64,000 nt of DNA from Dehalococcoidia bacterium (GTDB lineage: Bacteria; Chloroflexota; Dehalococcoidia; Lucifugimonadales; Australimonadaceae): positions 2,709,202-2,773,201 of the forward strand of contig OZ252088.1 of assembly GCA_965248065.1 (NCBI GenBank), in the 5' to 3' direction. Of this stretch, positions 5,552-47,479 are shown one piece after another. The notes under the pieces were generated by a model, which did not search any database, was not told the origin of the DNA, and saw nothing but the letters and a program-made list of their open reading frames with translations. Numbering within the stretch: the first letter of the stretch is position 1; each line of letters starts with the position of its first letter. Made by a program: the position numbers and the translations under genes.

Positions 5552-6517
5552 ATGAATAAGGCCAGCGTGTTTGCCCTGCTCGTTGCCACGCTCCTCATAG
5601 TCGCCTGTGGGCAGCCTACTCCGACTCCGACTGCTACTCCCATGCCAACGCTTACTCCTTCGCCAACGCCTGAACCAACGCCTACCCCTACAGCTACTCC
5701 TATCTCGATGCCTACTCCGACTCCGACTGCTACTCCCATGCCAACGCTTACTCCCTCGCCAACCGCTACATCTACACCTACTCCCTCGCCGACGCCTGAA
5801 CCTACGCCTACACCGACACCAAACATTGGACTATGGACGACTTTCGACACGGCTGACCCAGTAACAGAGGATCGCACTCATGGCATCAAACTCTTAGGAG
5901 ATACGCCTGGGCAATCGTTGACCATCCAATGCCAAACATCTGATAGCTCAGTTTATCCTTGGTCGTTTGACCTGATAGTTGAGTTTGGAACTCAACTGAC
6001 GCCAGGAGGAGTTCCATATGCCGGAAGCAGGTGGTTTATTTCCACAATACAAAACGTATACAGAGTCCAAACAGAAAGCAATCCATCGAGTATCAATTCA
6101 TGGGATGCTTTGCCGTCCGGTTCCGAACTTGTTTGGTCGAGAGTCAACTCCCGAATATATCAATCGTACAACGATTATCCTAGCGCAGCAGACTTTAGCA
6201 ATCCCACTCCAGAAGAACAAGCCGCTATAGATGCTTACGTGCGAGGAGCACAAGAGGCACAAAACAAAGACAAAGCAGCTCTGCGTGAGTTCGTGAAGCG
6301 ATTGACCAATGCCGATATGTTTGCTATACGCGCGTTCGGAGGTCAACGAATTGAAAGCAGCAGGTTCGAGTTCCCAGAAGGTTCTTTTGGAGAGACATTA
6401 GCTCAACTTGTCGTGCCCGAGCACCCGCACCTTGCTGTTTTCGATATCCGAGGTCTAGATGTCGCGATACAGCCCATATATGAATCGTGTTGGGAATATC
6501 CTGAGCCAACAGCTTGA
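5552..6517 (+). CDS. Lipoprotein with Pro/Thr-rich linker, unknown function
   Basis: Signal peptide ending LIVA-C (lipobox), ~65 aa PT-repeat with an internal duplication, globular C-terminus, lower GC than the backbone. Confidence 0.8.
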
Positions 6518-12292: not shown

Positions 12293-13129
12293 TTAGAGCA
12301 AGCCAAGCCCGTGTTCGAGGTCTCGAAGCTGTTTCTTTAGATCATAGAGCCTTTGGAGCTGTTCTACTTCTAAGAAACGAATTGCCGAACGAATCTCATG
12401 GAATGTCCCGGAGAGCAGCGCATTGATGGACTGGCGTTGTTTCTCCTGCGCAACGATGAAGATACGGCTATTCCAGAGGTCGTAGGCGTGCTTTAGCTTT
12501 CCGAGAGCATGGTAAATGTCGCCGCCTATCTGTACCTCGAACACAAAAGTGGGAACGGAGTTCGCTACTCGACGCCATACAACATCGAGGCGTTCGTTCT
12601 CCATCTTGTATTCCTGTTCCGCAAAATATCGCTGCATAATGCCCGCTTCGACAAGCTGTTCTTTCAGCCGGTTGTGCAGGGAAGGTTGTGGCTGAGACGA
12701 TGGCCCCGTCGTGATTGCTTGCCCGGTGAAGCTAAGCATCAGTTCTTCTGCGAGGGATGGATCAATCGATTGAAAGCCGCCTCTCGCTAGAGTTCTGACT
12801 CTCTGGTCTGCTAGGGCACTCTCCTTCCATTGTTCAAAAGGAACCGTCCGCTCTATGTCAAATTCGAAGCGAAGCGGCCATAGGACTGAGTTCTGTTCAA
12901 TTTCTTGAGTCCATAAAGGCTTGTCTTGTCTAAACTTCTTGCGTACTGTTCCATGACCGATAATCCCTGCTATTGGAGTCGTTGCATAGAAGAGGACTTT
13001 GTCATTTTCAGCAATCAGTTCCCACATCAGGGCAGGCCTGCCGTCGTTCTTCAGTCCCCAGATGTTTTCTTGCTCGAACGCTTCGAGCCATTGTTTAGGC
13101 TGCCCAACTGCTAACCACCACCGTGGCAT
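12293..13129 (-). CDS. EVE-domain / PD-(D/E)XK-type nuclease fusion (candidate modification-dependent endonuclease)
   Basis: N-terminal EVE-like pattern (WGLK...NDKVLFYAT...GIIGHGTV...LWPLRF). C-terminal RLDVVW...FVFEVQ nuclease-like motif. Lower GC. Confidence 0.7.
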   Translation of the reverse strand: MPRWWLAVGQPKQWLEAFEQENIWGLKNDGRPALMWELIAENDKVLFYATTPIAGIIGHGTVRKKFRQDKPLWTQEIEQNSVLWPLRFEFDIERTVPFEQWKESALADQRVRTLARGGFQSIDPSLAEELMLSFTGQAITTGPSSQPQPSLHNRLKEQLVEAGIMQRYFAEQEYKMENERLDVVWRRVANSVPTFVFEVQIGGDIYHALGKLKHAYDLWNSRIFIVAQEKQRQSINALLSGTFHEIRSAIRFLEVEQLQRLYDLKKQLRDLEHGLGLL

Positions 13130-13253
13130 TCTTTTCTCCAAAATTGAGAATTCGAACAGGAGTATAGCAGTTGGGCGCGAGATGCCGTTGCCCCCTTGAC
13201 AACCCCCGCCCCGGTCCGATATGGACCCGCGACTACTTGCGGGAGGCGTCGTC

Positions 13254-13626
13254 ATGGGGTTGAGCATCGGCATTATGAAGGTTGAATACCTGGAGAGGCC
13301 CGATGGGGCGGCGTACAAGTTCGCGCAGCACATGGCCGAGGAAGGCGCGATGGACGCCTATATGTTCGGCGACGGCGGCAGCTGGATCCCGTTCACGCAG
13401 CGCCAAGTGTTGGAGTTGTTGGACGTATTCGCCGCCAGGAGGGGTCTGAGCGCGGTCGACCGGCGGCTGGTTGTTGAGTGGCTGATGGAGTTGCCGTGGA
13501 TTGGGGGGGTGGCGGGACGCGCTGCCGCCGGACGACGGCCGCGACAGCGAGGACGGCTATCACGCCGTGATGGACAACGACGACCTCCGCGACGGCGGCC
13601 TCATCGAGCTGCACTTCAACTGGTGA
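13254..13626 (+). CDS. Hypothetical protein, probable frameshift in the G7 run at 13503-13509
   Basis: SD GGGAGG then ATG 13254. Removing one G gives a coherent end WRDALPPDDG...GGLIELHFNW*. Confidence 0.5.
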
Positions 13627-19065: not shown

Positions 19066-19158
19066 CGGGAATGATGTATTGTAATGATGTAGTATTTCGA
19101 TGCGACAGGTTCTTCCATTCTAGGGAGGCAATTGAACGGCAGGACGGGAGAAAGCGCA

Positions 19159-19569
19159 ATGGAAAATCACTTTGAATGTATGGTGTTAGCAGGACAGATG
19201 GGAGTCTTCGGAGTTGTTATGGATGTCATGCAGAAGCATAGCGGCGCCGGCGAACGATTGTCAGCGTCCGTCATTTCAGTAAATTCCTCGCGGTTTGGTT
19301 CGGACGAAGCGATTAGCATTAGGCTGAAGAGCGGACATCGAGAAGGAGAAATTGGGAAAGTCTTGGTGCGCCCGCTCCACGGCAACCTCCATCTGCTCAT
19401 GGTTCCCGGGAACAGGACGGGAGGAGCGGAGCCTGAGCTGGACTCCGACGGCGCGCGCTTCGCGGTAGTCCTCCAATCGTTGCTAGGCAGACTGGAGAAG
19501 CAGGGACTCCGCGTGCCGAACAGCCCTCCGCCGGAAAAGGAGCCTGCGGGCTTCCGGAGACCGACGTAG
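19159..19569 (+). CDS. Hypothetical protein (insert in pyr operon)
   Basis: ORF with upstream GGGAG, lower GC, closely followed by the HEPN gene. Confidence 0.65.
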   Translation: MENHFECMVLAGQMGVFGVVMDVMQKHSGAGERLSASVISVNSSRFGSDEAISIRLKSGHREGEIGKVLVRPLHGNLHLLMVPGNRTGGAEPELDSDGARFAVVLQSLLGRLEKQGLRVPNSPPPEKEPAGFRRPT

Positions 19570-19573
19570 GAGC

Positions 19574-19996
19574 ATGCGCGTTGAGACGCAACGGTGGCTC
19601 AGACAAGCAGAGGCGGACTTGCGCGCCGCTAGGGACAGTCTCTCTGCGAGACATTACGAGTGGACATGCTTTCAGTCTCAACAATCGGGAGAAAAAGCGC
19701 TTAAATGTTTTCTTCTCGAAAGGGGATATTCTTCCGATGCGATACGCACAATAAGGCACTCCCTTCATGGCCCGGGCAGCGCCTTGGAATCATGCCAATA
19801 TCTCCAGCCGGAATTCGGCTCTCTCGGTACGCACGCGGACTTGTTGAACCAACTTAGTATTGCAACCCGTTATCCCGACAGCGACACACTCATGGGCGGA
19901 GCGGCGCCTGTGGACTTCTTCGTTGAAGATCACGCTCAACGTTCCATAGAGGCCGCTGAAGCTATCATGGAAGCAGTGAGGCGCTTTGTCGAATAA
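19574..19996 (+). CDS. HEPN-domain protein
   Basis: WLRQAEADLRAA...CFQSQQSGEKALK...HSL...ATRYPD...AEAIMEAV pattern. SD AGGAG. Confidence 0.88.
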   Translation: MRVETQRWLRQAEADLRAARDSLSARHYEWTCFQSQQSGEKALKCFLLERGYSSDAIRTIRHSLHGPGSALESCQYLQPEFGSLGTHADLLNQLSIATRYPDSDTLMGGAAPVDFFVEDHAQRSIEAAEAIMEAVRRFVE

Positions 19997-29719: not shown

Positions 29720-30332
29720 TCACGGGGCAATGCCGATAAGAACCAGCGGGACCGCGGGAACTCCGCGCCCTTGCCGGAGCACGTTCAGCAAATCTCGTTC
29801 GTAGTAAGGAACACCGGAGGACATTTCCCGTTCCAGTTCCTTCATAGGAAGTATCTCGATACCCACGTCAATGATGTCCGACACGTAGAAGCTGAGATGC
29901 TTCACAAACAGGTCGTGTGCAACAAAAGCGTACTTGCCTAATTGGACTTCCACCGCAACACGATCTTTCACGAAGTCGGTCTGGTTGTAAGACATTATCG
30001 GCGATTGCCCGGGCTTGCTCTATCGCCTGTTTCTGTTGGCCCTCTGGCAAATCGTAAATGCTACGTAGGAGCTTCTCGTCAGCAGTTACCCAGAAGGTAT
30101 TCCGACGCTCGCTCCATCCTAACGCTTCAAACCCATCCTTGAAGGCTTGATTCATGTCGGCGGGGGAGAACAGCGTTCTGCCTCGCATCGTCTTCTCCTT
30201 TGAGACTTTGGTCCGGCAGGCGAAGGCATCGATCCCTACTATCACGCTTTGCACTTCCTCCCACAACTGCTTGCGGTGAACGAGCAGATATTCCTCGCCA
30301 TTGAGGTGTGAGTAGCGAGCCTTGATCTGCAT
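29720..30332 (-). pseudogene. BstYI/BglII-family type II restriction endonuclease, +1 frameshift at ~30011-30013
   Basis: YSHLNGEEY...SYNQTDFVKDRVAVEVQLGKY...GRGVPAVPLVLIGIAP closely follows the BstYI sequence as I recall it. Removing one base gives 203 aa. Confidence 0.88.
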
Positions 30333-31258
30333 CAGTGTCCCCCATTGGGCTTCGCAGGATCGTAGATTGGCTTCCCCATTGGGCGAGTCCGGAGGTTCCC
30401 CATATGCAATTGGTGTACTCGTTGTCGAGCAATATCCACATACTCAGAAACAATGTCACACCCGTAGGCGGCACGGCTGTGCCTGAGCGCGGCAACGACG
30501 GATGACCCAACTCCCATATATGGATCGAATACCGCGTCCTTCGCATTGGTCATGGAAAGGACGAGGCGCTCCACTAGTTCAACGGGAAACTGGCAAGGAT
30601 GGATCGTCTTCTCCGGGTGGTTGTTCTTGACATTCGGGAATTCCCACACATCGCTCGGATTCTTACCCTTTGGGTTTCCCGACAGCTTGCCGATGTTCGG
30701 ACCCTTGAAATAGCGCTTGCCTGGATACTTTGACGGAACCCTGATCGGATCGAGATTCCATGTATAGTCGTCATTCTTCATCCACCAGTTAATAGTCTCG
30801 TATCGCCCGGATAACCGCCTTGTGGAATGCAGACCGTGCCCGAAGTGCCAGATGATCCGATTGCGGAGCTTGAGTCCCTGATTGCGGAACATGGGGTAGA
30901 GGACGGCGTCGAGGGGGACGATCTCCCCGTTATTGACGTAGTTTCCGACCTGCCAGCAAATCGATCCCTGAGGATGGAGAACTCGAACACACTCGCTGAT
31001 TACGCGCTCTTGTGCCTTAAGATAGTCGTCGAGTGACGTCTTGGCCTCGTAGTCCTTGCCCAAGTTGTACGGGGGTGAAGTAACGACTAGCTTCATCTGC
31101 CCATCGGGAAGCCTCTTCATAAAGGCAAGGTTGTCTTCGCAGGCTAGGACGATTTGGTCGTTAGTGGTCACTCGACCAGCCAGCGATGCCGCAGAGGCGA
31201 AAGCCAGCTTCCCTGAGGTGCCTTTCGTGAAGGGTTGAGACTCACTGGTATATTGCAT
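30332..31258 (-). CDS. Beta-class N4-cytosine/N6-adenine DNA methyltransferase (cognate of the BstYI-like REase)
   Basis: TSPPY motif IV, HPCQFP, FDPYMGVGSS motif I. TGATG overlap with the REase start. Confidence 0.92.
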   Translation of the reverse strand: MQYTSESQPFTKGTSGKLAFASAASLAGRVTTNDQIVLACEDNLAFMKRLPDGQMKLVVTSPPYNLGKDYEAKTSLDDYLKAQERVISECVRVLHPQGSICWQVGNYVNNGEIVPLDAVLYPMFRNQGLKLRNRIIWHFGHGLHSTRRLSGRYETINWWMKNDDYTWNLDPIRVPSKYPGKRYFKGPNIGKLSGNPKGKNPSDVWEFPNVKNNHPEKTIHPCQFPVELVERLVLSMTNAKDAVFDPYMGVGSSVVAALRHSRAAYGCDIVSEYVDIARQRVHQLHMGNLRTRPMGKPIYDPAKPNGGH

Positions 31259-38941: not shown

Positions 38942-39406
38942 GTTCCTAGGTTGATTGAGTCTTAGGTTACCGGCATTGTTCGGAATAGGAGGAGCCGCAG
39001 CGCTCCCGCCCCATCGCGCCCCTCGTCTGCACAGACGGGAGAGGAGGCCGGATGGTCTCTGCGGCGCCTAATGGGGCGCGCCCCCTGTTTTATGACGGTA
39101 AAACACCTTCTTGATGGGAGTTTTTACTCGTAAAGGCGAAGCGCATATGCCGCCGAAAGGGGGGTCTTCACCTTCTTGATCGGGGCTGTTTAGCAGGCCA
39201 CGGCCTGCTTCCTGCGATCAAGAATGCGATTGAAACGCGAAAACACACATTCGTCGAGGGGCCCTTCTCCTCTGGGGCATGGCCTCTGGGGCATGGCCCC
39301 AAGGGCCTCGCCGGAGGTCCAAATCCATGGTAGCTGCCCGGAGGCAGTTGGAGTAAGGGGCTGATGTCCGGGGTACGTCCCCGGTATCCCTGCGTTACGA
39401 GGCTAG

Positions 39407-40933
39407 TTACTCAGTCTCTGCCGCTTCTGCCTGATGCATCTCCATCTCCAAGGGCACTCGCAGAAGGCGGTCCTTCAGAATCTTGATGGTGTCCGGATCC
39501 AGGTTCGAAGCTTGGTGGCGCGCCTGCCATTCCGCTATCGCATCGTATGTGCAGTGGCGTAAGTAATTCAGGACGCCTTCGCTCCCCTGTAGCTGACTCC
39601 AGTGAGGATGTTGAGTATTTATAGTAACCATGACTCTGTGGTCAGCGGTGGAGTCCACGGCGACGTAAGGATCACTGAGAGAACCGTCGCCCACAAGGTA
39701 GCCAACTATCTCAAACTGGCCTGCCTGGGCCTGGAACGTCGGGGTCCGTCCATCCATCGCTTGGGTAAGGCTTACGAAAGCTTGCGCTACGGCCTGTGGG
39801 GGCGGAACAATCTGAAGTGACACCGTATCCGCAAATTCCGGTGAACTCAGCTCATTCACTAGCTCGTCAATGGCTGTTCGCGTTTCAATGTCACTGGGTC
39901 CGCGATTATCGTCATCTCTCCTGCGCGCTCGGCGGGCGACGGCCGCGTAGTCACTACATGCCGCGCTCAAGTGTTCCTGAATTTCTTCCTCCTCATCCCC
40001 AAGCCAGAGAATGTCGTCCTTGGTATGGCTAACGTCGAACTCATCTAAGTGAATCTCACCTATCAGGCGTTGATTGATTAGGTCATTGGAGCCTTGGAAT
40101 TGCCCATATAAAGCTTCGGGGCGCCAGCTGTCAGGCCAACCACGGATGACACGGCCTGCATGCAGTATGGAAAACCCAGCACTCGATCGACTCCCTCGGT
40201 CTAAAATCCCAACCCAACCATGGACTGATTTCCCGTGAATCGTGAAGGCGAAATCTTTTCGGTAGCGCGAACCATCAGGAGCAGCTAAGAACTGGAACTC
40301 TGAGTCATCCCATTCAAGGGCTGTCCCCTGCCACTCAAGAGTAATTAGGTCATTTCGAAGATCTTGTCGGTACATAGATCGGAGAAATTGCTGAATCTTG
40401 CCTAGGGTTCGCCCTTGGAAAACTCTATTATGACTGTTTACCTCAATTACGGTATAGTGGAGATCGATCGGTTTATTGCTGGCCTCTGAGTGCGGCAAGT
40501 TACCGGTACCGGATGCAATAGCATTGACATCGACTGTAACTTTGTGTTCAGTAGTTTCACCTAATTTCTTCGTCCTAATAGTCCATATATTGCCTATCCA
40601 ACATGCTGAAGTTTTCATTCCCATGCCGAATTGAGAGCGCCCTGTAGTATTCTCAGGAGGGAATCCAACCTTGAGAGCATTCGTGAGTTCGTTATACGAC
40701 ATTCCCATAGCATTATCCGAGACTCGGAGCATCCCGCCATCATTCCTATCGTAGACGATGCCTATCGTAAGACGTTCATTGGCAGAGTTCAAGGCAGCGT
40801 CAAGCACACCCCGGTTGTCGAAGTATGACTGCGTCGCATTATCAACCAGCTCTGCAATTGCGTGCCATGGCGTATACGAAAGGCGCTTGTAGGACTGGAT
40901 AACCTCTAAGCCTAACTGCAACTGTATTGTCAT
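39407..40933 (-). CDS. MORC/GHKL-family ATPase
   Basis: AIAELVDNA, VSDNAMGM, SQFGMGMKTSA, HYTVIEV Bergerat motifs, followed by an S5-like domain. Confidence 0.88.
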   Translation of the reverse strand: MTIQLQLGLEVIQSYKRLSYTPWHAIAELVDNATQSYFDNRGVLDAALNSANERLTIGIVYDRNDGGMLRVSDNAMGMSYNELTNALKVGFPPENTTGRSQFGMGMKTSACWIGNIWTIRTKKLGETTEHKVTVDVNAIASGTGNLPHSEASNKPIDLHYTVIEVNSHNRVFQGRTLGKIQQFLRSMYRQDLRNDLITLEWQGTALEWDDSEFQFLAAPDGSRYRKDFAFTIHGKSVHGWVGILDRGSRSSAGFSILHAGRVIRGWPDSWRPEALYGQFQGSNDLINQRLIGEIHLDEFDVSHTKDDILWLGDEEEEIQEHLSAACSDYAAVARRARRRDDDNRGPSDIETRTAIDELVNELSSPEFADTVSLQIVPPPQAVAQAFVSLTQAMDGRTPTFQAQAGQFEIVGYLVGDGSLSDPYVAVDSTADHRVMVTINTQHPHWSQLQGSEGVLNYLRHCTYDAIAEWQARHQASNLDPDTIKILKDRLLRVPLEMEMHQAEAAETE

Positions 40934-40957
40934 GCGAGATCTCCTATTCGACCTTCA

Positions 40958-41746
40958 CTACCGTACTTCTTCAAAATAGAACTTCCCTTCATCGTCGCGC
41001 ATTATTCGGTAGTCTTGGCCGACTTTGAGGGGGTTGCGCTTTATGGGGCTAAGCCATACCTGATCGGATACATCGGTGCGTTCCCATTCCGTGAGTCCAT
41101 CTCGAAAAGCTATAGCAACTCGCTGTCCATGTGCTACGTCTAGCGCAGCTGGAGAGTCGACTTGAAGTAGGCGAGGAATCGTACGGTCGAGGCGACACGA
41201 AGATACTAGATGTTCCGCACTGATTGCGGGATCATCGCCGTTGATACGGAAAGCGTGATGGTTTCTGAAAGAGCGAAATACCTCAACGACCGTCACGAGC
41301 CCATTCAATAGCCGTATAGGCTCAACCCAGCTAAGCATAGTCTGGTTCACTACAACCAGAACTCTCGGCTGAGCCCCTTTAATCATATCACGTATCAGTG
41401 CTGAGTCGATCGCTGCCGATGACGAGTGCGTAGCAATGTACTCTGCATGCTCGGATCCATACCTGCCCTCAGCGAACACCTCTACTTGAGGAAGAACGTG
41501 TCCAGCAAGTGAGTGATGCGCCATCTCAATTTCTACTATCCACCAATGACGGTATCGTTTGTCGATGAGAACGAGATCGGGGATTTTGACTCCTGCCTCG
41601 GACTCGACACGAGCTCTGAATGGGATAGTATGATACTCAGGAAACAGCAAAGCTGCATGGCTAACGACAATCGATTCAAAATCTGACTCATATTGCGCCT
41701 CTGACGACAAGGGCTCAAACCATTCATTATTAATCAGCAGTCGCAA
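40958..41746 (-). CDS. Hypothetical protein with NucS-like PD-(D/E)XK nuclease motif
   Basis: ESDFE...PDLVLID...WWIVEIEM. TTG start chosen 2 nt after the helicase stop. Confidence 0.65.
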   Translation of the reverse strand: MRLLINNEWFEPLSSEAQYESDFESIVVSHAALLFPEYHTIPFRARVESEAGVKIPDLVLIDKRYRHWWIVEIEMAHHSLAGHVLPQVEVFAEGRYGSEHAEYIATHSSSAAIDSALIRDMIKGAQPRVLVVVNQTMLSWVEPIRLLNGLVTVVEVFRSFRNHHAFRINGDDPAISAEHLVSSCRLDRTIPRLLQVDSPAALDVAHGQRVAIAFRDGLTEWERTDVSDQVWLSPIKRNPLKVGQDYRIMRDDEGKFYFEEVR

Positions 41747-41748
41747 GT

Positions 41749-42966
41749 CTATACACCATACGTCGAGCGCATCCAAGTAATCTCGCCCGCTCCTATCAAG
41801 TCTCGTGCTTCCTCAATCAACCGCTCTTGCTCAGGTGCGGTTAAATAGATCGTATAAATAGTGGCTCGTTCCTTATTGACCGCGGGTCTCAGTGCGCGCC
41901 CTAGCCGTTGAATCCGTTGGCGAACGCTTGCCGTGGAGGATACAATAATCGCGACACTAGTCTCTGGAATATTCACTCCTTCATCAAGTGCTCTGCATGT
42001 AACCAAAATATTGAACACTCCCGTCCGGTACAGCCGCAGGTTATCACGCCTCAGTTCCGGACGAAGGCGCGAGTGATAGAGTGTAGCATTCAAGCCTCTT
42101 GCAGTGAGCACCGTCTGTATGGCTTCCGCCCATTGGATGCTTTCGTGGAACACCAGCACTCGGGCGTTGCGATTGTCTTCGATTAGCCGAATAGCAACTG
42201 GTATTCGGCGTTCTGAAGTAGCTGCGATTCTAGCGCGATTTTGAAGTTTACGAACCAGCACCGGGCTATTCACCGAGTCGCCATCAAGCCTTCGGAGGGT
42301 TTTTGCGATGTCAAGCGTAGCCTGATCGTACCGGCTCTGCTCCTCAACCGTCATCTCTGCTGCGACATTGATGAGGTCAAACGGAACAATCACGCCATCG
42401 GCCAGTGCGCTTCGGTAATCGTAGCGATAAATGAGAGGCCCCAGCGATGGCACTAGAACTTCATCAAACAAGTTGTCGTACTGCCGTTCCGGTGTCGCTG
42501 AGATGCCCAGCGTCGCTGTATGTGAGCCTCGGAGTGCTGCTGCGTTGGCCTCGCTAGCAGTCCGGTGGCACTCATCCACGATAAGCATCGTTTTATACAT
42601 GCCTGCAATCTTCGGAGCATATGTGCGGGCTGTGTTGGCAACCATGAGGTTTACGACGGCTGGCTCAGCCGGACGCCCTTCGCCTGAGTAGGTAGCAATG
42701 GATTCGGCTGGCACTGCGAAATCTTCGCGCAAGCTGATGTACCACTGGTCAAGGAGCACTGTCGTTGGAACGATAATAACGAACCGTCCATCCGCGTACA
42801 ACTTTCGAAAATGGCTCATGCACATCTGCGCGAACGTAGTCTTGCCAGCGCCTGTGACCACTGAAGCAATGCCCCGAAGCGCCTCGATCCAGGTAACGAG
42901 GGCTTCCGATTGCCATCGCCGTGGAAGCTGAGCAACGGTCCATGAAGGAATGGGAGCGTGCGTCAC
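41749..42966 (-). CDS. SF2 helicase (ResIII/XPB-like)
   Basis: TGAGKT, DECH, GISATP, LDEGVNIP, QRLGRALR. Confidence 0.92.
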   Translation of the reverse strand: MTHAPIPSWTVAQLPRRWQSEALVTWIEALRGIASVVTGAGKTTFAQMCMSHFRKLYADGRFVIIVPTTVLLDQWYISLREDFAVPAESIATYSGEGRPAEPAVVNLMVANTARTYAPKIAGMYKTMLIVDECHRTASEANAAALRGSHTATLGISATPERQYDNLFDEVLVPSLGPLIYRYDYRSALADGVIVPFDLINVAAEMTVEEQSRYDQATLDIAKTLRRLDGDSVNSPVLVRKLQNRARIAATSERRIPVAIRLIEDNRNARVLVFHESIQWAEAIQTVLTARGLNATLYHSRLRPELRRDNLRLYRTGVFNILVTCRALDEGVNIPETSVAIIVSSTASVRQRIQRLGRALRPAVNKERATIYTIYLTAPEQERLIEEARDLIGAGEITWMRSTYGV

Positions 42967-43976
42967 TTAGCACTTTTCCCCTTGAGTTTAGGGAATCGAC
43001 TCATTGAAGCTTTAGCATAGTGCTCCACCGGCTCGATTGATAGCCACCGCCGGCCTAACGACTCAGCAGCGGCACCAGTGACATTGCTCCCCGCAAATGG
43101 GTCGATTACCAGGTCTCCCGGCTCGGTCAGGAACTCAATAAAGAACCTAGCTAGCAGGAAGGGCATCCTTGCGGGATGCGAAGGGATACCTCTGTCCCTG
43201 CAATATTGCTGATAAGGATCGTTCGCCTGAGTATTCGAGACGGTGATTACATTTGAGGGGATGGCCCCACCATTGTCTTTGAGGAATGATTTCTTACCAA
43301 TGGCGTGTTCCGAAGGGCGCTTACCGGCATTGTACCGCTTGGTTTTCAGTAGGTTCAGCATCGCTGCGCTATAAGGTGATAAGACTCGACGGTTGTCTGC
43401 TTTTGGCCGTTCTGTAGGAGACATCCACCATACATGAGTAAAGGCATCCTTCACACGAATCCGCTCTACATTCACCCATTGCGCTGGGGAGGGCAGCCGT
43501 GCCGGGTTAGGACAGACAAATTGCTGACACAAGAAGAGTTCCCCCTGCTTAATGAACTTAAGGAGCGCCTCTAGCGCCAAGGTCGACATCACCGGTTGGC
43601 CAGGCTCCCATGCATTGCCTAACTCTAGGACAATCGAACCCTCCGGTTGCAAGTATCTCTTGAATCGCGTGGCGAAATCGGCTAACCAGTCAACATACGC
43701 ATCGCCGACAAGGTTGCCGTAAGCCTTCTTCCGGTTGAGAGGGAACGGCGGGGAAGTAAAGATAAGCTGAGCCGAGGAGAGGTACTCCTCAAAATACGGG
43801 CCGTCGAGTGCGCGCTCAGCAGTCGCAATGAACATCTTGCCGAGTTCAGTCGAGTACGCCCTCCGAGGACGCGCTTGCCGCCTTGTAAGCGGTCGAGCTT
43901 GGGTTCGTGCCACCAGCGGCCTACTTTCCGTAGGTGTTTGGCGGGTAGCATCGACGAGAGTGAATACCGGCGTCAA
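42963..43976 (-). CDS. M.PvuII-like beta-class DNA methyltransferase (probably m4C)
   Basis: FTSPPF, NPARLPSPAQWVN, RVKDA, DNGGAIPSN, HPARMP and DPFAGSNVTG parallel M.PvuII motifs as I recall them. ATGA overlap with the helicase. Confidence 0.9.
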   Translation of the reverse strand: MTPVFTLVDATRQTPTESRPLVARTQARPLTRRQARPRRAYSTELGKMFIATAERALDGPYFEEYLSSAQLIFTSPPFPLNRKKAYGNLVGDAYVDWLADFATRFKRYLQPEGSIVLELGNAWEPGQPVMSTLALEALLKFIKQGELFLCQQFVCPNPARLPSPAQWVNVERIRVKDAFTHVWWMSPTERPKADNRRVLSPYSAAMLNLLKTKRYNAGKRPSEHAIGKKSFLKDNGGAIPSNVITVSNTQANDPYQQYCRDRGIPSHPARMPFLLARFFIEFLTEPGDLVIDPFAGSNVTGAAAESLGRRWLSIEPVEHYAKASMSRFPKLKGKSAK

Positions 43977-46514: not shown

Positions 46515-47397
46515 TGAATCCACAAACGAAGTGCAACACCAGATTAGGGTGTTGCCATGGAATACAGACAGCTCTGCATTGAGGAACGGTGTGAGATTGC
46601 CCGCTTACGCGCCAAGGGCTCCTCGGTCCGGCAAGTCGCTACAACTCTGGATCGCGCGGCATCGACCGTGGCTCGGGAGCTGAAGCGGAACGCGCTGCGA
46701 ACGGACGGGTACCAAGCGTCGCCGGCCCAGGAGCGTGCCCGCGCGCGGCGCTGGACGGGGGCGCGGCTGGAACGGGACGAGGAGTTGCGGGAGCGGGTCT
46801 TGGCGGGCCTGAAGTGGGGGTGGTCGCCGGAGCAGGTCGCCCATGAGATGCGCAGAGAGGAGGGCCGGACGGTGACCTCGGACGAGAGCATCTACCGGTT
46901 CGTCTACGCCCAGGCCGCGCGGCGGACCTTCGGGCACTGGGAGGCGGACACGATGCAGTTCGGGAGGTCGGGAGAGGTGGTGTTGGCCCTGCAGGAACGC
47001 TCCTCGCGCCTCTTGCTCCTCGCGCGGGCGCCGTCGAAGGAGGCGGGGCCGATCGCGGAGTCCATCGCCCGGATGCTGGGGCCGTTGCCGCCGGAGTTTC
47101 GCCAGACGGTGACCTTCGACAATGGGACCGAGTTCACCCGTCACTACGAGCTCCACCGGTTGGGCATCGAGACGTTCTTCTGCGACACGTACTCGCCGTG
47201 GCAGAAGGGGGGAGTGGAGAACGCGATCGGCCGGCTGCGGCGGTTCCTGCCGCGGGGGACGAATCTGGGGGAGGTGTCGGATGAGCGGTTTGCGCTGATC
47301 GGGCAGGCGTACAACAATACGCCGCGCAAGTGCCTGGGCTACCGGACACCGGCGGGGGTCGTCGAGGAGCAGGTGTTGCACTTCAAATGTGGATTCA
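46515..47397 (+). mobile_element. IS30-family element, copy A (141-bp in-frame deletion in transposase 46557-47420)
   Basis: 26-bp IRs (TGAATCCACAAACGAAGTGCAACACC; 23/26 match). GHWEADT, TFDNGTEF, SPWQKGGVEN and NNTPRKCLGY motifs. Confidence 0.92.
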
Positions 47398-47479
47398 CCT
47401 TCCCGCCTTCGCGGGAATGACGGAAGGGGGCGGCCTGTATAATCGCTGTCCGGTAGGAGACGGCGAGGCAGGCGTGGTT

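What the first reader, a model, noticed from the sequence alone, without database searches (positions are those of the whole stretch)
39407..43976. Candidate undescribed defence operon: PvuII-like MTase, SF2 helicase, PD-(D/E)XK nuclease, MORC ATPase
Seen: four co-oriented, tightly packed genes (ATGA overlap, 2-nt and 24-nt gaps), visibly lower GC than the flanks, all frames intact and catalytic motifs present. Established: M.PvuII-type enzymes normally pair with a small type IIP REase, and prokaryotic MORC/GHKL ATPases are predicted partners of R-M-like systems with SF2 helicases. Inference: a multi-subunit restriction system in which m4C marks self and a helicase plus MORC clamp license a separate nuclease. 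It does not match the gene sets I know for types I-III, BREX, DISARM or Dnd.
Basis: partly seen in the sequence, partly recalled or inferred. Interest (0 to 1): 0.82.

Follow-up and report, generated by a model that had tools for sequence, protein, structure and literature searches.

The report
Four-gene MORC restriction-modification cassette
This is an intact, horizontally acquired four-gene cassette (a DNA methyltransferase, a helicase, a nuclease and a bacterial MORC ATPase) that recurs in the same order in many bacterial phyla. It is most likely an ATP-driven restriction-modification defence of a kind predicted in 2008, but I found no report that it has been named or tested.

Summary
Four intact, co-oriented minus-strand genes lie at 39407-43976, in DNA of 48-58% GC against flanks of 67-71%.

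- **MT:** an M.PvuII homologue (E 1.6e-77, 47.6% identity).
- **HEL:** an XPB/Rad25-like SF2 helicase. It matches the helicase half of PbeA but has no fused nuclease.
- **NUC:** about 262 aa, with no Pfam, NCBIfam or PADLOC family. It has a PD...ExE motif and weak but consistent PD-(D/E)XK fold matches.
- **GHKL:** a true MORC-family ATPase. Its best fold matches are MORC2/3/4, and it carries the published MORC signature GhXhhpXXRhl.

The order MT-HEL-NUC-MORC recurs in 26 of 29 genome loci from at least seven phyla. Nothing else in the flanks is conserved, and the four proteins co-evolve.

The cassette matches no complete PADLOC system and is not Pbe, Mza, Type III or PvuII-type. It is not a wholly new kind, because Iyer, Abhiman and Aravind (2008) predicted operons of MORC, Rad25-like helicase, nuclease and methylase. 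This is a new, uncharacterised variant with a standalone nuclease and an N4-cytosine-type methyltransferase.

The mechanism I propose is inferred: m4C marks self DNA, and a helicase-nuclease pair gated by a MORC clamp cuts unmarked DNA.

The parts
42963..43976 (-). MT: beta-class N4/N6 DNA methyltransferase of the M.PvuII family. The longest ORF is 337 aa, but the likely true start is GTG at 43913 (316 aa) or ATG at 43835 (290 aa). Motif IV TSPPF is at nt 43743-43757 and motif I DPFAGSN at nt 43083-43103.
   Evidence: PF01555 E 3.3e-27. PADLOC MTase_II PDLC03323 E 7.3e-89. M.PvuII (PDB 1boo) E 1.6e-77, 47.6% identity over 286 residues. The N-terminal 40 or so residues are not conserved, while the central region where this class carries its target-recognition domain is as conserved as the catalytic motifs.
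41749..42966 (-). HEL: 405-aa XPB/Rad25-like SF2 helicase/translocase with no fused nuclease or other extra domain. Its GTG start overlaps the MT stop (GTGA). Motifs are GAGKT (nt 42838-42852), DECH (42565-42576), SAT (42493-42501) and QRLGRALR (41887-41910).
   Evidence: ResIII, Helicase_C and ERCC3_RAD25_C. Archaeal XPB/Rad25 structures E 7.7e-27. PADLOC PbeA PDLC02707 E 8.8e-69, covering only profile positions 253-647 of 672, which is the helicase half. TIGR04095 scores 160 bits against a cut-off of 600.
40958..41746 (-). NUC: a protein of about 262 aa with no described family. The N-terminal part is a PD-(D/E)XK-type nuclease core (P66-D67 at nt 41570-41581; E82-I-E84-MAHH at nt 41513-41533). 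The C-terminal part is beta-rich (about residues 159-270). TTG start at 41746, 2 nt after the HEL stop; the longest ORF would start at 41776.
   Evidence: No Pfam, PADLOC or NCBIfam hit. 154 unnamed homologues. 963 clusters at 50% identity in the 1.84-billion-protein library, almost all of the 150 listed being about 260 aa and standalone. D67, E82, E84, H88 and Q97 are invariant. AF2 model pLDDT 91.6. Weak but consistent fold hits to PD-(D/E)XK nucleases: R2 RLE, Bax1 and MGME1 in PDB, and Cas4, RecB-family, VRR-NUC and PD-(D/E)XK proteins in BFVD. Pfam SduA_C E 0.26 at residues 30-90.
39407..40933 (-). MORC: 508-aa GHKL-S5 ATPase of the MORC family with a family-specific C-terminal region (about residues 322-508). 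Bergerat motifs are ELVDN (nt 40838-40852), DNAMGM (40700-40717) and GRSQFGMGMKT (40610-40642). The MORC signature GFSILHAGRVI is at nt 40145-40177. Invariant HPH (39602-39610) and RHCTYD (39542-39559) lie in the C-terminal region.
   Evidence: HATPase_c_3 E 8.1e-19. AF2 model pLDDT 76. Top PDB fold matches are the MORC3, MORC2 and MORC4 ATPase modules at E about 5e-16, followed by Hsp90/TRAP1 and SMCHD1. The signature motif GhXhhpXXRhl of Iyer 2008 is met, with G253, F254, R261 and V262 invariant in the family. Residues 3-321 are homologous (hhalign E 3.4e-41) to the ATP-binding protein of a Dcm-MORC-Z1-PD-(D/E)XK cassette.
38942..39406 (.). Intergenic spacer downstream of the cassette, with intermediate GC (0.56-0.62). 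It is the probable 3' edge of the acquired DNA and contains a perfect 14-nt tandem repeat, CCTCTGGGGCATGG x2, at 39269-39296.
   Evidence: No tRNA, integrase or flanking direct repeat was found.

Best explanation
The region is a self-contained, horizontally mobile four-gene restriction-modification (R-M)-type defence cassette.

Proposed roles:
- MT is a PvuII-family enzyme, probably an N4-cytosine methyltransferase. It probably acts on CAGCTG or a closely related site and marks the host chromosome as self.
- HEL, NUC and MORC form the ATP-dependent restriction machine.
- The XPB/Rad25-like SF2 motor (HEL) translocates on or opens DNA.
- The standalone PD-(D/E)XK nuclease (NUC) has D67/E82/E84, a BamHI-like ExE active-site variant. 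It cuts the DNA, and its beta-rich C-terminal part probably contacts DNA.
- The MORC GHKL-S5 ATPase dimerises on ATP binding and clamps DNA. It gates or recruits the helicase-nuclease pair through its family-specific C-terminal region.
- Functionally this resembles a split MutL/paraMORC3-type clamp-plus-nuclease, coupled to a motor as in CglI or Type III enzymes.

Shown here: the domain identities, intact catalytic motifs, conserved gene order, co-evolution of the four genes, and foreign base composition.

Inferred: the defence role, the m4C chemistry and target site, physical complex formation, which subunit reads the site, and the clamp-gating step.

Rough odds: R-M-type defence in which MT protects and the other three restrict, about 0.75. 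The specific MORC-clamp-gates-nuclease step, about 0.35.
For: (1) Domain identities come, and all catalytic motifs are intact.

(2) MT-HEL-NUC-MORC occurs in the same order and orientation in 26 of 29 GTDB genome loci. These span Chloroflexota, Gemmatimonadota, Armatimonadota, Acidobacteriota, Planctomycetota, Actinomycetota and deltaproteobacterial MAGs. L011 has the MT inverted downstream. L027 and L028 carry a different PF01555 methyltransferase instead. The same four genes appear in independent metagenome contigs.

(3) No other flanking gene is shared by more than 3 loci, so the unit is exactly these four genes.

(4) Start and stop codons overlap or lie within 2-24 nt of each other, which is consistent with translational coupling.

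(5) Pairwise-identity matrices correlate: HEL-NUC 0.85, NUC-MORC 0.85, HEL-MORC 0.78 and MT with the others 0.59-0.75. NUC evolves fastest, with a mean pairwise identity of 43%.

(6) Marks of horizontal transfer and defence:
- GC is about 15 points below the flanks.
- Some copies sit among housekeeping genes and others among AbiEii, MazE/PIN, SRA and ubiquitin-like defence genes.
- One copy has an IS3-family element inserted in the MORC gene.

(7) Precedents:
- MORC operons with a Rad25-like helicase, a nuclease and a methylase were predicted to be R-M systems (PMC2292703).
- A GHKL-nuclease fusion, VcSduA/paraMORC3, protects against phage and needs both its ATPase and nuclease residues (PMC12137116).
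- CglI shows that a separate SF2 motor can activate a separate site-specific nuclease (PMC5861437).
Against: - There is no experimental evidence of methylation, restriction or complex formation for any member.
- The nuclease assignment of NUC rests on a motif plus weak fold matches: best PDB E 0.017, best BFVD E 0.0045, and no hit at E <= 0.001. A profile search of PDB sequences found nothing.
- The only apparent NUC::MORC fusion, in L027, turned out to be a frameshift. No Rosetta-stone evidence of contact remains.
- CAGCTG is not avoided in the window: 17 observed against 23.6 expected, ratio 0.72, typical of palindromes here.
- No recognisable promoter lies upstream of MT.
- The MORC C-terminal region has an invariant His/Cys/Asp/Glu cluster that could itself be catalytic, which would change the assignment of roles.
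Confidence: 0.6

Rival explanations
1. Type III-like organisation. MT is not only the protective enzyme but also the specificity (Mod-like) subunit of the restriction complex. HEL plus NUC form a split Res subunit. MORC is an accessory regulator.
For: - MT belongs to the same beta-class PF01555 family that also contains Type III Mod methyltransferases.
- Iyer et al. note that Rad25-like helicases are typical of Type III systems and are usually fused to an RE-fold nuclease. Here the nuclease gene directly follows the helicase gene with a 2-nt gap.
- MT is first in the operon and overlaps HEL.
Against: - MT's best models are Type II: PDLC03323 at 7e-89 and M.PvuII at 1.6e-77, against MTase_III at 6.5e-11.
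- No Type III REase model is among HEL's 25 best PADLOC hits.
- MT co-evolves least tightly with the other three (r 0.59-0.75). It has been inverted in L011 and replaced by unrelated PF01555 enzymes in L027 and L028. That is easier to explain if MT acts alone.
Confidence: 0.18
2. The MORC protein is itself the endonuclease, through its conserved C-terminal region. This would parallel MutL or the GHKL-containing REase R.HgiDII. The 262-aa 'NUC' protein would then be mainly a DNA-recognition or sensor subunit.
For: - The MORC C-terminal region has invariant H442-P-H444, R459-H460-C461, D464 and E468.
- Iyer et al. suggested that an HxH motif in the paraMORC5 C-terminal domain could be a nuclease site.
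- R.HgiDII and several putative REases have an N-terminal GHKL domain plus an unassigned C-terminal domain (PMC2441816).
- The fold matches that make NUC a nuclease are all weak.
Against: - NUC has an invariant PD...ExE constellation on the correct alpha-beta-beta-beta-alpha-beta secondary-structure pattern.
- Its fold hits, though weak, are repeatedly PD-(D/E)XK nucleases.
- The MORC C-terminal region is modelled with low confidence (pLDDT about 50-80) and has no detectable similarity to any nuclease.
Confidence: 0.12
3. The cassette is not a defence system but a mobile DNA-repair or DNA-maintenance module. It would combine an XPB-Bax1-like helicase-nuclease pair with a MutL-like ATPase and use methylation for strand or context discrimination.
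For: - HEL's closest solved relatives are archaeal XPB repair helicases.
- Bax1, the XPB partner nuclease, is among NUC's weak fold hits.
- MORC is related to MutL.
Against: - The distribution across phyla is patchy, the base composition is foreign, the flanks are variable and one copy is disrupted by an IS. These features fit a selfish or defence cassette, not a repair pathway.
- Linkage to a Type II-like methyltransferase is constant.
- HEL aligns to XPB only from XPB residue 83 onward, so XPB's N-terminal region is missing.
- From my reading of the sequence, HEL also lacks the RED motif after motif III (it has SATPER).
- Some copies lie in defence and toxin-antitoxin islands.
Confidence: 0.05
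4. Chance neighbours: an orphan or ordinary Type IIP PvuII-like methyltransferase that happens to sit next to unrelated helicase, hypothetical and ATPase genes.
For: M.PvuII relatives normally pair with a small REase. The window also carries another separate MTase-plus-small-REase pair at 29868-31258.
Against: The four genes are syntenic in 26 of 29 loci across at least seven phyla and co-evolve. They overlap or abut. No small R.PvuII-like ORF or C-protein gene is present.
Confidence: 0.02

Closest known systems
MORC-associated R-M operons with Rad25-like helicases ('type 1' operons of Iyer, Abhiman and Aravind 2008, PMC2292703); computational prediction only
   Same: A bona fide MORC (GHKL + S5 + GhXhhpXXRhl motif), a Rad25/XPB-like SF2 helicase, an RE-fold nuclease and a DNA methylase in one predicted operon, with a sporadic, laterally transferred distribution.
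   Different: In the published description the nuclease (RE-fold or HKD) is usually fused to the helicase, and the methylases are 'mostly cytosine' (Dcm) types. Here the nuclease is a separate protein of about 262 aa from a family without any database model. The methylase is a PvuII-family beta-class (N4C-type) enzyme, and the MORC has its own C-terminal region of about 190 aa.
Dcm - MORC (ATP-binding protein) - Z1 helicase - PD-(D/E)XK cassettes (Iyer 'type 3'; e.g. Rathayibacter festucae plasmid NZ_CP047182.1 and Hymenobacter plasmid NZ_CP095048.1); related to PADLOC/NCBIfam Mza
   Same: The four functional roles are the same. The MORC GHKL-S5 module is homologous (33% identity, hhalign E 3.4e-41, including the MORC motif).
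   Different: The helicase is of the Z1 type rather than XPB-like. The methylase is C5 (Dcm) rather than PvuII-like. The nuclease is not detectably homologous (hhalign probability 0.1). The gene order and the MORC C-terminal region also differ. MzaB models score only 15-17 bits.
CglI / NgoAVII ATP-dependent restriction enzymes (R2H2; PMC5861437)
   Same: The logic is the same: a stand-alone methyltransferase, a separate nuclease subunit and a separate SF2 motor subunit whose ATP hydrolysis activates cleavage. NUC's C-terminal part gives weak fold hits to B3 DNA-binding domains, the fold that R.CglI uses for site recognition.
   Different: R.CglI uses a PLD nuclease rather than PD-(D/E)XK. H.CglI is a DEAD-Z1 motor rather than XPB-like. 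CglI has no GHKL/MORC subunit. The B3 resemblance here is weak (E 0.1-0.2).
VcSduA / paraMORC3 (Shedu type I-D), experimentally validated (PMC12137116)
   Same: It pairs a GHKL-S5 ATPase with a PD-(D/E)XK nuclease, and both activities are needed for phage defence. It has a predicted clamp-like dimer. NUC residues 30-90 give a faint SduA_C match (E 0.26).
   Different: VcSduA is a single polypeptide with no helicase and no methyltransferase, so it does not mark self by modification. paraMORC3 lacks the MORC signature motif that the window protein has. No fusion of NUC and MORC was found.
PbeA / 'dnd_restrict_1' HKD-nuclease-SF2-helicase proteins of CxC-ABC (PbeABCD) systems
   Same: The helicase core is clearly homologous (PADLOC PbeA E 8.8e-69; TIGR04095 E 9e-47).
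   Different: The window protein lacks the N-terminal HKD nuclease. No PbeB, PbeC or PbeD model matched any of the four cassette proteins, and no dnd genes were seen. TIGR04095 scores 160 bits against a cut-off of 600.
PvuII R-M system (Type IIP)
   Same: The methyltransferase is a close family member (47.6% identity, collinear over 286 residues).
   Different: There is no R.PvuII-like small homodimeric REase and no C.PvuII controller gene. The methyltransferase is instead linked to three ATP-dependent or nuclease genes.
Archaeal XPB-Bax1 helicase-nuclease pair
   Same: An XPB-like helicase gene lies next to a separate PD-(D/E)XK-type nuclease gene. Bax1 chains are among NUC's fold hits.
   Different: The Bax1 hits are weak (E 0.08-0.3). 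HEL lacks XPB's N-terminal region (its alignment starts at XPB residue 83) and, from my reading of the sequence, the RED motif. XPB-Bax1 is a repair pair with no methyltransferase or MORC.

Membership tests
Prokaryotic MORC family (Iyer et al. 2008) | GHKL domain with all ATP-binding motifs | tested here: met
   E28/N32, D73xGxG77 and G98...G103xG105-K107-T108 are invariant in alignment A2. HATPase_c_3 E 8.1e-19.
Prokaryotic MORC family (Iyer et al. 2008) | S5-fold transducer domain after the GHKL domain | tested here: met
   The AF2 model aligns over 380-410 columns with the MORC3, MORC2 and MORC4 ATPase (GHKL+S5) modules, E about 5e-16, TM about 0.45-0.58.
Prokaryotic MORC family (Iyer et al. 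2008) | MORC-specific motif GhXhhpXXRhl in the S5 domain (absent from paraMORC1-5) | tested here: met
   G253-F-S-I-L-H-A-G-R261-V-I fits every position, and G253, F254, R261 and V262 are invariant.
MORC R-M operon, type 1 (Rad25-like helicase) | Rad25/XPB-like SF2 helicase in the operon | tested here: met
   Best solved relatives are XPB/Rad25 at E 7.7e-27. ERCC3_RAD25_C and NF045503 XPB hits.
MORC R-M operon, type 1 (Rad25-like helicase) | RE-fold or HKD nuclease fused to the helicase (described as 'commonly' so) | tested here: not met
   HEL is 405 aa and is helicase core only. The nuclease is a separate ORF in all 29 loci.
MORC R-M operon, type 1 (Rad25-like helicase) | Linked DNA methylase | tested here: met
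   A PF01555 methyltransferase lies in or next to the cassette in all 29 loci, orthologous in 27 (inverted in L011, frameshifted in L029) and non-orthologous in L027 and L028.
Type III R-M | Res subunit: SF2 helicase with a fused C-terminal PD-(D/E)XK nuclease | tested here: not met
   The nuclease is not fused, and no REase_III model is among HEL's 25 best PADLOC hits.
Type III R-M | Mod-type methyltransferase that supplies specificity to Res | tested here: inconclusive
   MT is beta-class PF01555, as Mod is, but it scores far better on Type II models (7e-89 against 6.5e-11). Whether restriction needs MT cannot be tested in silico.
PvuII-type Type IIP R-M | M.PvuII-family methyltransferase | tested here: met
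   PDB 1boo E 1.6e-77, 47.6% identity.
PvuII-type Type IIP R-M | Adjacent small homodimeric REase (and C protein) | tested here: not met
   No such ORF lies between 38942 and 44004. NUC matches no PADLOC REase model.
PbeABCD / CxC-ABC system | PbeA: HKD nuclease fused to an SF2 helicase | tested here: not met
   Only the helicase part matches (profile positions 253-647 of 672). No PLD domain was found.
PbeABCD / CxC-ABC system | CxC ABC ATPase (PbeC) and DndE-like protein (PbeD) | tested here: not met
   No PbeB, PbeC or PbeD hits for NUC or GHKL. Component definitions come from PMC10853773.
Mza (MutL-Z1-AIPR) | MzaB GHKL protein with Z1 helicase and AIPR partners | tested here: not met
   MzaB scores 15-17 bits against an NCBIfam cut-off of 850. 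No Z1 or AIPR gene is present.
Shedu type I-D / paraMORC3 | GHKL and DUF4263 nuclease in one polypeptide | tested here: not met
   The genes are separate. SduA_C E 0.26 only. The L027 'fusion' is a frameshift.
PD-(D/E)XK nuclease superfamily (for NUC) | alpha-beta-beta-beta-alpha-beta core carrying a D...(D/E)xK-type acidic constellation | tested here: inconclusive
   The invariant P66-D67 and E82-x-E84 sit on consecutive strands of a confident model. Repeated weak fold hits go to PD-(D/E)XK nucleases, but none at E <= 0.001. Lys is replaced by Glu, as in BamHI (from my own knowledge).
Any named anti-phage system in PADLOC-DB 2.0.0 | All components match that system's models | tested here: not met
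   Only generic MTase_II and helicase-core hits were found. DefenseFinder and REBASE were not available.

The most novel reading that the evidence does not exclude
The cassette may be a minimal, ancestral-type MORC machine. In this reading the bacterial MORC clamp is the sensor that distinguishes unmethylated (foreign) from m4C-marked (self) DNA. On ATP-driven closure it licenses an XPB-like motor and a new family of PD-(D/E)XK nuclease. If so, the methylation-linked DNA-compaction and silencing activity of eukaryotic MORCs descends directly from the licensing step of a restriction enzyme. This four-gene unit would then be the simplest system in which to reconstitute it.
Probability: 0.3. Interest if true: 0.75.

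Novelty: new variant of a known kind. Interest (0 to 1): 0.55.

Why it matters
- No bona fide prokaryotic MORC appears to have been studied biochemically or genetically. The searchable literature gives only the 2008 prediction, plus one validated paraMORC3/Shedu fusion.
- This cassette is compact (about 4.5 kb) and intact, and it is found across at least seven phyla.
- It is present in at least one cultured isolate, Actinoplanes sp. CA-142083.
- It carries the MORC signature motif shared with the eukaryotic silencers.
- It therefore offers a direct way to test what the ancestral MORC ATPase does on DNA, and how a GHKL clamp, an SF2 motor and a nuclease cooperate.
- It also defines a nuclease-like family of about 260 aa, with 963 clusters at 50% identity, that has no Pfam, NCBIfam or PADLOC model. 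Current defence-system finders would therefore miss the system.

Tried and rejected
1. **NUC::MORC fusion in L027 (835-aa ORF).** Rejected. Another reading frame restores the conserved NUC C-terminus (...VDLVKGEDGSLKFQPVTKE**) followed by stops. The 'fusion' is therefore a 1-nt indel or frameshift in a long-read MAG.

2. **Palindrome avoidance as a clue to the target site.** CAGCTG is 17 observed against 23.6 expected, which is unremarkable in this window.

3. **Mobile-element borders.** No tRNA gene in the window. No convincing flanking direct or inverted repeats. No integrase is adjacent, and an IS30-like gene lies 2.5 kb away.

4. **Sigma-70 promoter and terminator scan.** Counts were at or below shuffled expectation, with nothing upstream of MT.

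5. **Sequence searches of NUC.** Pfam, PADLOC, NCBIfam and PDB searches, with the single sequence and with a profile, gave no significant hit.

6. **Homology between NUC and the 'PD-(D/E)XK motif protein' of a Dcm-MORC-Z1 cassette.** None was found (hhalign probability 0.1).

7. **Plasmid and phage collections.**
   - NUC has no hit in plasmids.
   - MORC has only 4 distant plasmid hits and no phage hit.
   - NUC was not searched against phages.

8. **Membership tests.** Pbe, Dnd, Mza, Type III and PvuII-type membership each failed on a defining feature (see the membership table).

9. **B3-like DNA-binding domain in the NUC C-terminal part.** It remains only a weak lead (Foldseek E 0.1-0.2).

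10. **RED motif of XPB.** From my reading of the sequence, HEL has 'LRED' after motif Ia but not at the XPB position after motif III. I did not count it.

Full report
**1. Observation**

The region 39407-43976 holds four intact ORFs on the minus strand: MT (42963-43976), HEL (41749-42966), NUC (40958-41776 as the longest ORF) and a GHKL ATPase (39407-40933). GC falls to 0.48-0.58 here against 0.67-0.71 in the flanks. A 100-nt profile puts the edges near 38.8 kb and 43.9 kb.

The MT stop and HEL start overlap as GTGA, not ATGA. The HEL stop (TAG, 41749) is followed after 2 nt by TTG at 41746, and homologues show this to be the NUC start. The NUC stop is followed by 24 nt containing AGGAG and then the GHKL ATG.

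The first 40 or so residues of the MT ORF are not conserved, and called homologues are 288-299 aa. MT therefore probably starts at GTG 43913 or ATG 43835. All catalytic motifs are present.

**2. The four proteins**

- **MT.** A beta-class PF01555 enzyme. It is 47.6% identical, collinear over 286 residues, to the N4-cytosine methyltransferase M.PvuII (E 1.6e-77). Its best PADLOC model is a Type II MTase (7e-89). Across 25 cassettes the central region, where this class carries its target-recognition domain, is as conserved as the catalytic motifs. This suggests one shared specificity, plausibly CAGCTG-like. That target is inference.
- **HEL.** A bare SF2 core whose nearest solved relatives are archaeal XPB/Rad25 (E 7.7e-27). 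It matches the helicase half of PbeA (8.8e-69, profile positions 253-647 of 672) and scores below cut-off on TIGR04095. It lacks the HKD nuclease that defines PbeA (PMC10853773).
- **NUC.** It has no Pfam, PADLOC or NCBIfam family. None of its 154 word-indexed homologues is named. A profile search of 1.84 billion representatives finds 963 clusters, and almost all of the 150 listed are about 260 aa and standalone.
  - The alignment shows invariant P66-D67 and E82-x-E84, then A86, H88 and Q97. These lie on consecutive strands of a confident AF2 model (pLDDT 91.6).
  - No fold match reaches E 0.001. The named hits are nonetheless repeatedly PD-(D/E)XK nucleases: R2 RLE, Bax1 and MGME1 in PDB, and Cas4, RecB-family, VRR-NUC and PD-(D/E)XK proteins in BFVD. 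Pfam SduA_C appears faintly at residues 30-90.
  - I read NUC as a PD-(D/E)XK nuclease with a BamHI-like ExE variant, at moderate confidence. Its beta-rich C-terminal part gives weak B3-domain hits only.
- **GHKL protein.** A genuine MORC.
  - Its model's best matches are the MORC3, MORC2 and MORC4 ATPase modules (E about 5e-16), ahead of Hsp90/TRAP1 and SMCHD1.
  - It carries the motif GhXhhpXXRhl, which Iyer et al. use to separate MORCs from paraMORCs. Here it is GFSILHAGRVI, residues 253-263, with invariant G, F, R and V.
  - Residues 322-508 are specific to this family and contain invariant HPH and RHCTYD...E.

**3. Conservation of the cassette**

A scan of one genome per GTDB species with the NUC profile returned 29 loci. 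They come from Chloroflexota, Gemmatimonadota, Armatimonadota, Acidobacteriota, Planctomycetota, Actinomycetota and deltaproteobacterial MAGs, and from one isolate, Actinoplanes sp. CA-142083.

tblastn shows MT-HEL-NUC-MORC in the same order in 26 loci. The other three differ only in the methyltransferase:

| Locus | Difference |
|---|---|
| L011 | MT inverted downstream |
| L027 | A different PF01555 methyltransferase |
| L028 | A different PF01555 methyltransferase |

Clustering all flanking ORFs found no fifth conserved gene. Metagenome contigs repeat the four-gene unit. Some copies lie among housekeeping genes. Others lie next to AbiEii, MazE/PIN, an SRA-domain gene and a ubiquitin-like system.

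Pairwise-identity matrices of the four proteins correlate at r 0.59-0.85. The three non-MT genes are the most tightly coupled, and NUC evolves fastest.

Four loci carry damaged copies. One has an IS3-family element in the MORC gene (L004). Three have frameshifts (L022, L027, L029), which may be long-read sequencing errors.

**4. What did not hold up**

The one apparent NUC::MORC fusion (L027) is a frameshift. It gives no evidence of physical contact. CAGCTG is not depleted in the window. No tRNA, integrase, flanking repeats or promoter-like sites mark the island.

**5. Mechanism**

The best-supported reading is an ATP-dependent R-M-type defence. MT marks self DNA. HEL, NUC and MORC restrict unmarked DNA.

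By analogy with CglI, a separate SF2 motor can activate a separate nuclease (PMC5861437). By analogy with VcSduA/paraMORC3, a GHKL clamp controls a PD-(D/E)XK nuclease, and both activities are needed for defence (PMC12137116). On that basis I propose that MORC closes on DNA in an ATP-dependent way and gates the HEL-NUC pair through its private C-terminal region.

This step is inferred. I put it at about 0.35, and the general R-M-defence reading at about 0.75.

The rivals are:

- a Type III-like arrangement in which MT is also the specificity subunit (0.18);
- MORC as the real nuclease through its His/Cys/Asp/Glu cluster, as suggested for GHKL-containing REases such as R.HgiDII (PMC2441816) (0.12);
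- a repair module (0.05);
- chance neighbours (0.02).

**6. Comparison with known systems, and novelty**

The class was predicted in 2008. MORC operons with Rad25-like helicases, RE-fold or HKD nucleases and methylases were described as 'type 1' (PMC2292703). This cassette meets the MORC definition and the helicase and methylase features. It differs in having a standalone, unclassified nuclease and a PvuII-family methyltransferase.

The MORC module is homologous (E 3.4e-41) to that of Dcm-MORC-Z1-PD-(D/E)XK cassettes on plasmids. The helicase, the methylase and the nuclease in those cassettes are non-orthologous replacements.

The cassette fails defining features of Type III, PvuII-type, Pbe, Mza and Shedu I-D systems (see the membership table). 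It has no full-system match in PADLOC-DB 2.0.0.

Literature searches found no experimental work on a bona fide prokaryotic MORC system. That library lacks most subscription-journal papers, and REBASE and DefenseFinder were unavailable.

**Verdict:** a real feature and a new variant of a known, predicted kind. Its interest is moderate. A specialist would not be surprised by it, but it is a clean and widespread entry point for testing what ancestral MORCs do.

Noticed in passing
window 29868-31258 (-): A second, separate R-M-like pair lies in another low-GC patch. It has a 308-aa PF01555 N4/N6 methyltransferase (E 2.9e-52, SPPY motif). A 154-aa ORF directly abuts it at 30332 and has a weak BglII-like REase hit (PF09195 E 0.0017, below cut-off). 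That ORF looks short or truncated.
   Followed up: partly
window 12293-13333 (-): A low-GC (0.52) 346-aa ORF with an EVE domain (PF01878, 5e-7). It may be a modified-base reader or a Type IV-like restriction protein.
   Followed up: partly
window 19132-19996 (+): A low-GC pair: a 145-aa ORF without a Pfam hit, followed 5 nt later by a 140-aa HEPN-domain protein (PF05168, 1.3e-22). It looks like an MNT/HEPN-type toxin-antitoxin pair.
   Followed up: partly
window 5552-6517 (+): A 321-aa ORF at 51% GC, in the lowest-GC patch of the first 10 kb, with no Pfam family. It is probably another acquired gene.
   Followed up: partly
window 46557-47420 (+): An IS30-like transposase ORF (HTH_38 4e-15, weak rve), only 287 aa, 2.5 kb upstream of the cassette. 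It may be truncated. No link to the cassette borders was found.
   Followed up: partly
window 39269-39296: A perfect tandem duplication of the 14-mer CCTCTGGGGCATGG in the 466-nt spacer downstream of the MORC gene. Its significance is unknown.
   Followed up: no
L004 10239-11477: In a Caldilineaceae MAG the MORC gene of the cassette is split between residues 142 and 145 by an IS3-family element of about 1.24 kb (92-aa OrfA and 274-aa DDE OrfB on the opposite strand). This inactivates the MORC gene, while the MT, HEL and NUC ORFs remain full-length.
   Followed up: yes
L027 10041-15549: In an Actinomycetota MAG the cassette lacks the PvuII-like MT. It is followed by a ParB-N protein, a different PF01555 methyltransferase, and a 704-aa PLD + ResIII helicase (PbeA-like architecture). 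This may be a composite or a neighbouring second system.
   Followed up: partly
L032 8361-8798 (also L033, L034): In one set of JGI metagenome contigs a 145-aa SAD/SRA-domain gene (a methyl-cytosine reader fold) follows the MORC gene after 18 nt. The island also holds an SMC-like ATPase and a ubiquitin-like (Multi_ubiq, Prok-E2, JAB, ThiF) system.
   Followed up: no
L022, L029: Cassette genes carry frameshifts: MORC in L022, and MT, HEL and MORC in L029. These could be decaying copies or long-read assembly errors. The two cases could not be told apart.
   Followed up: partly
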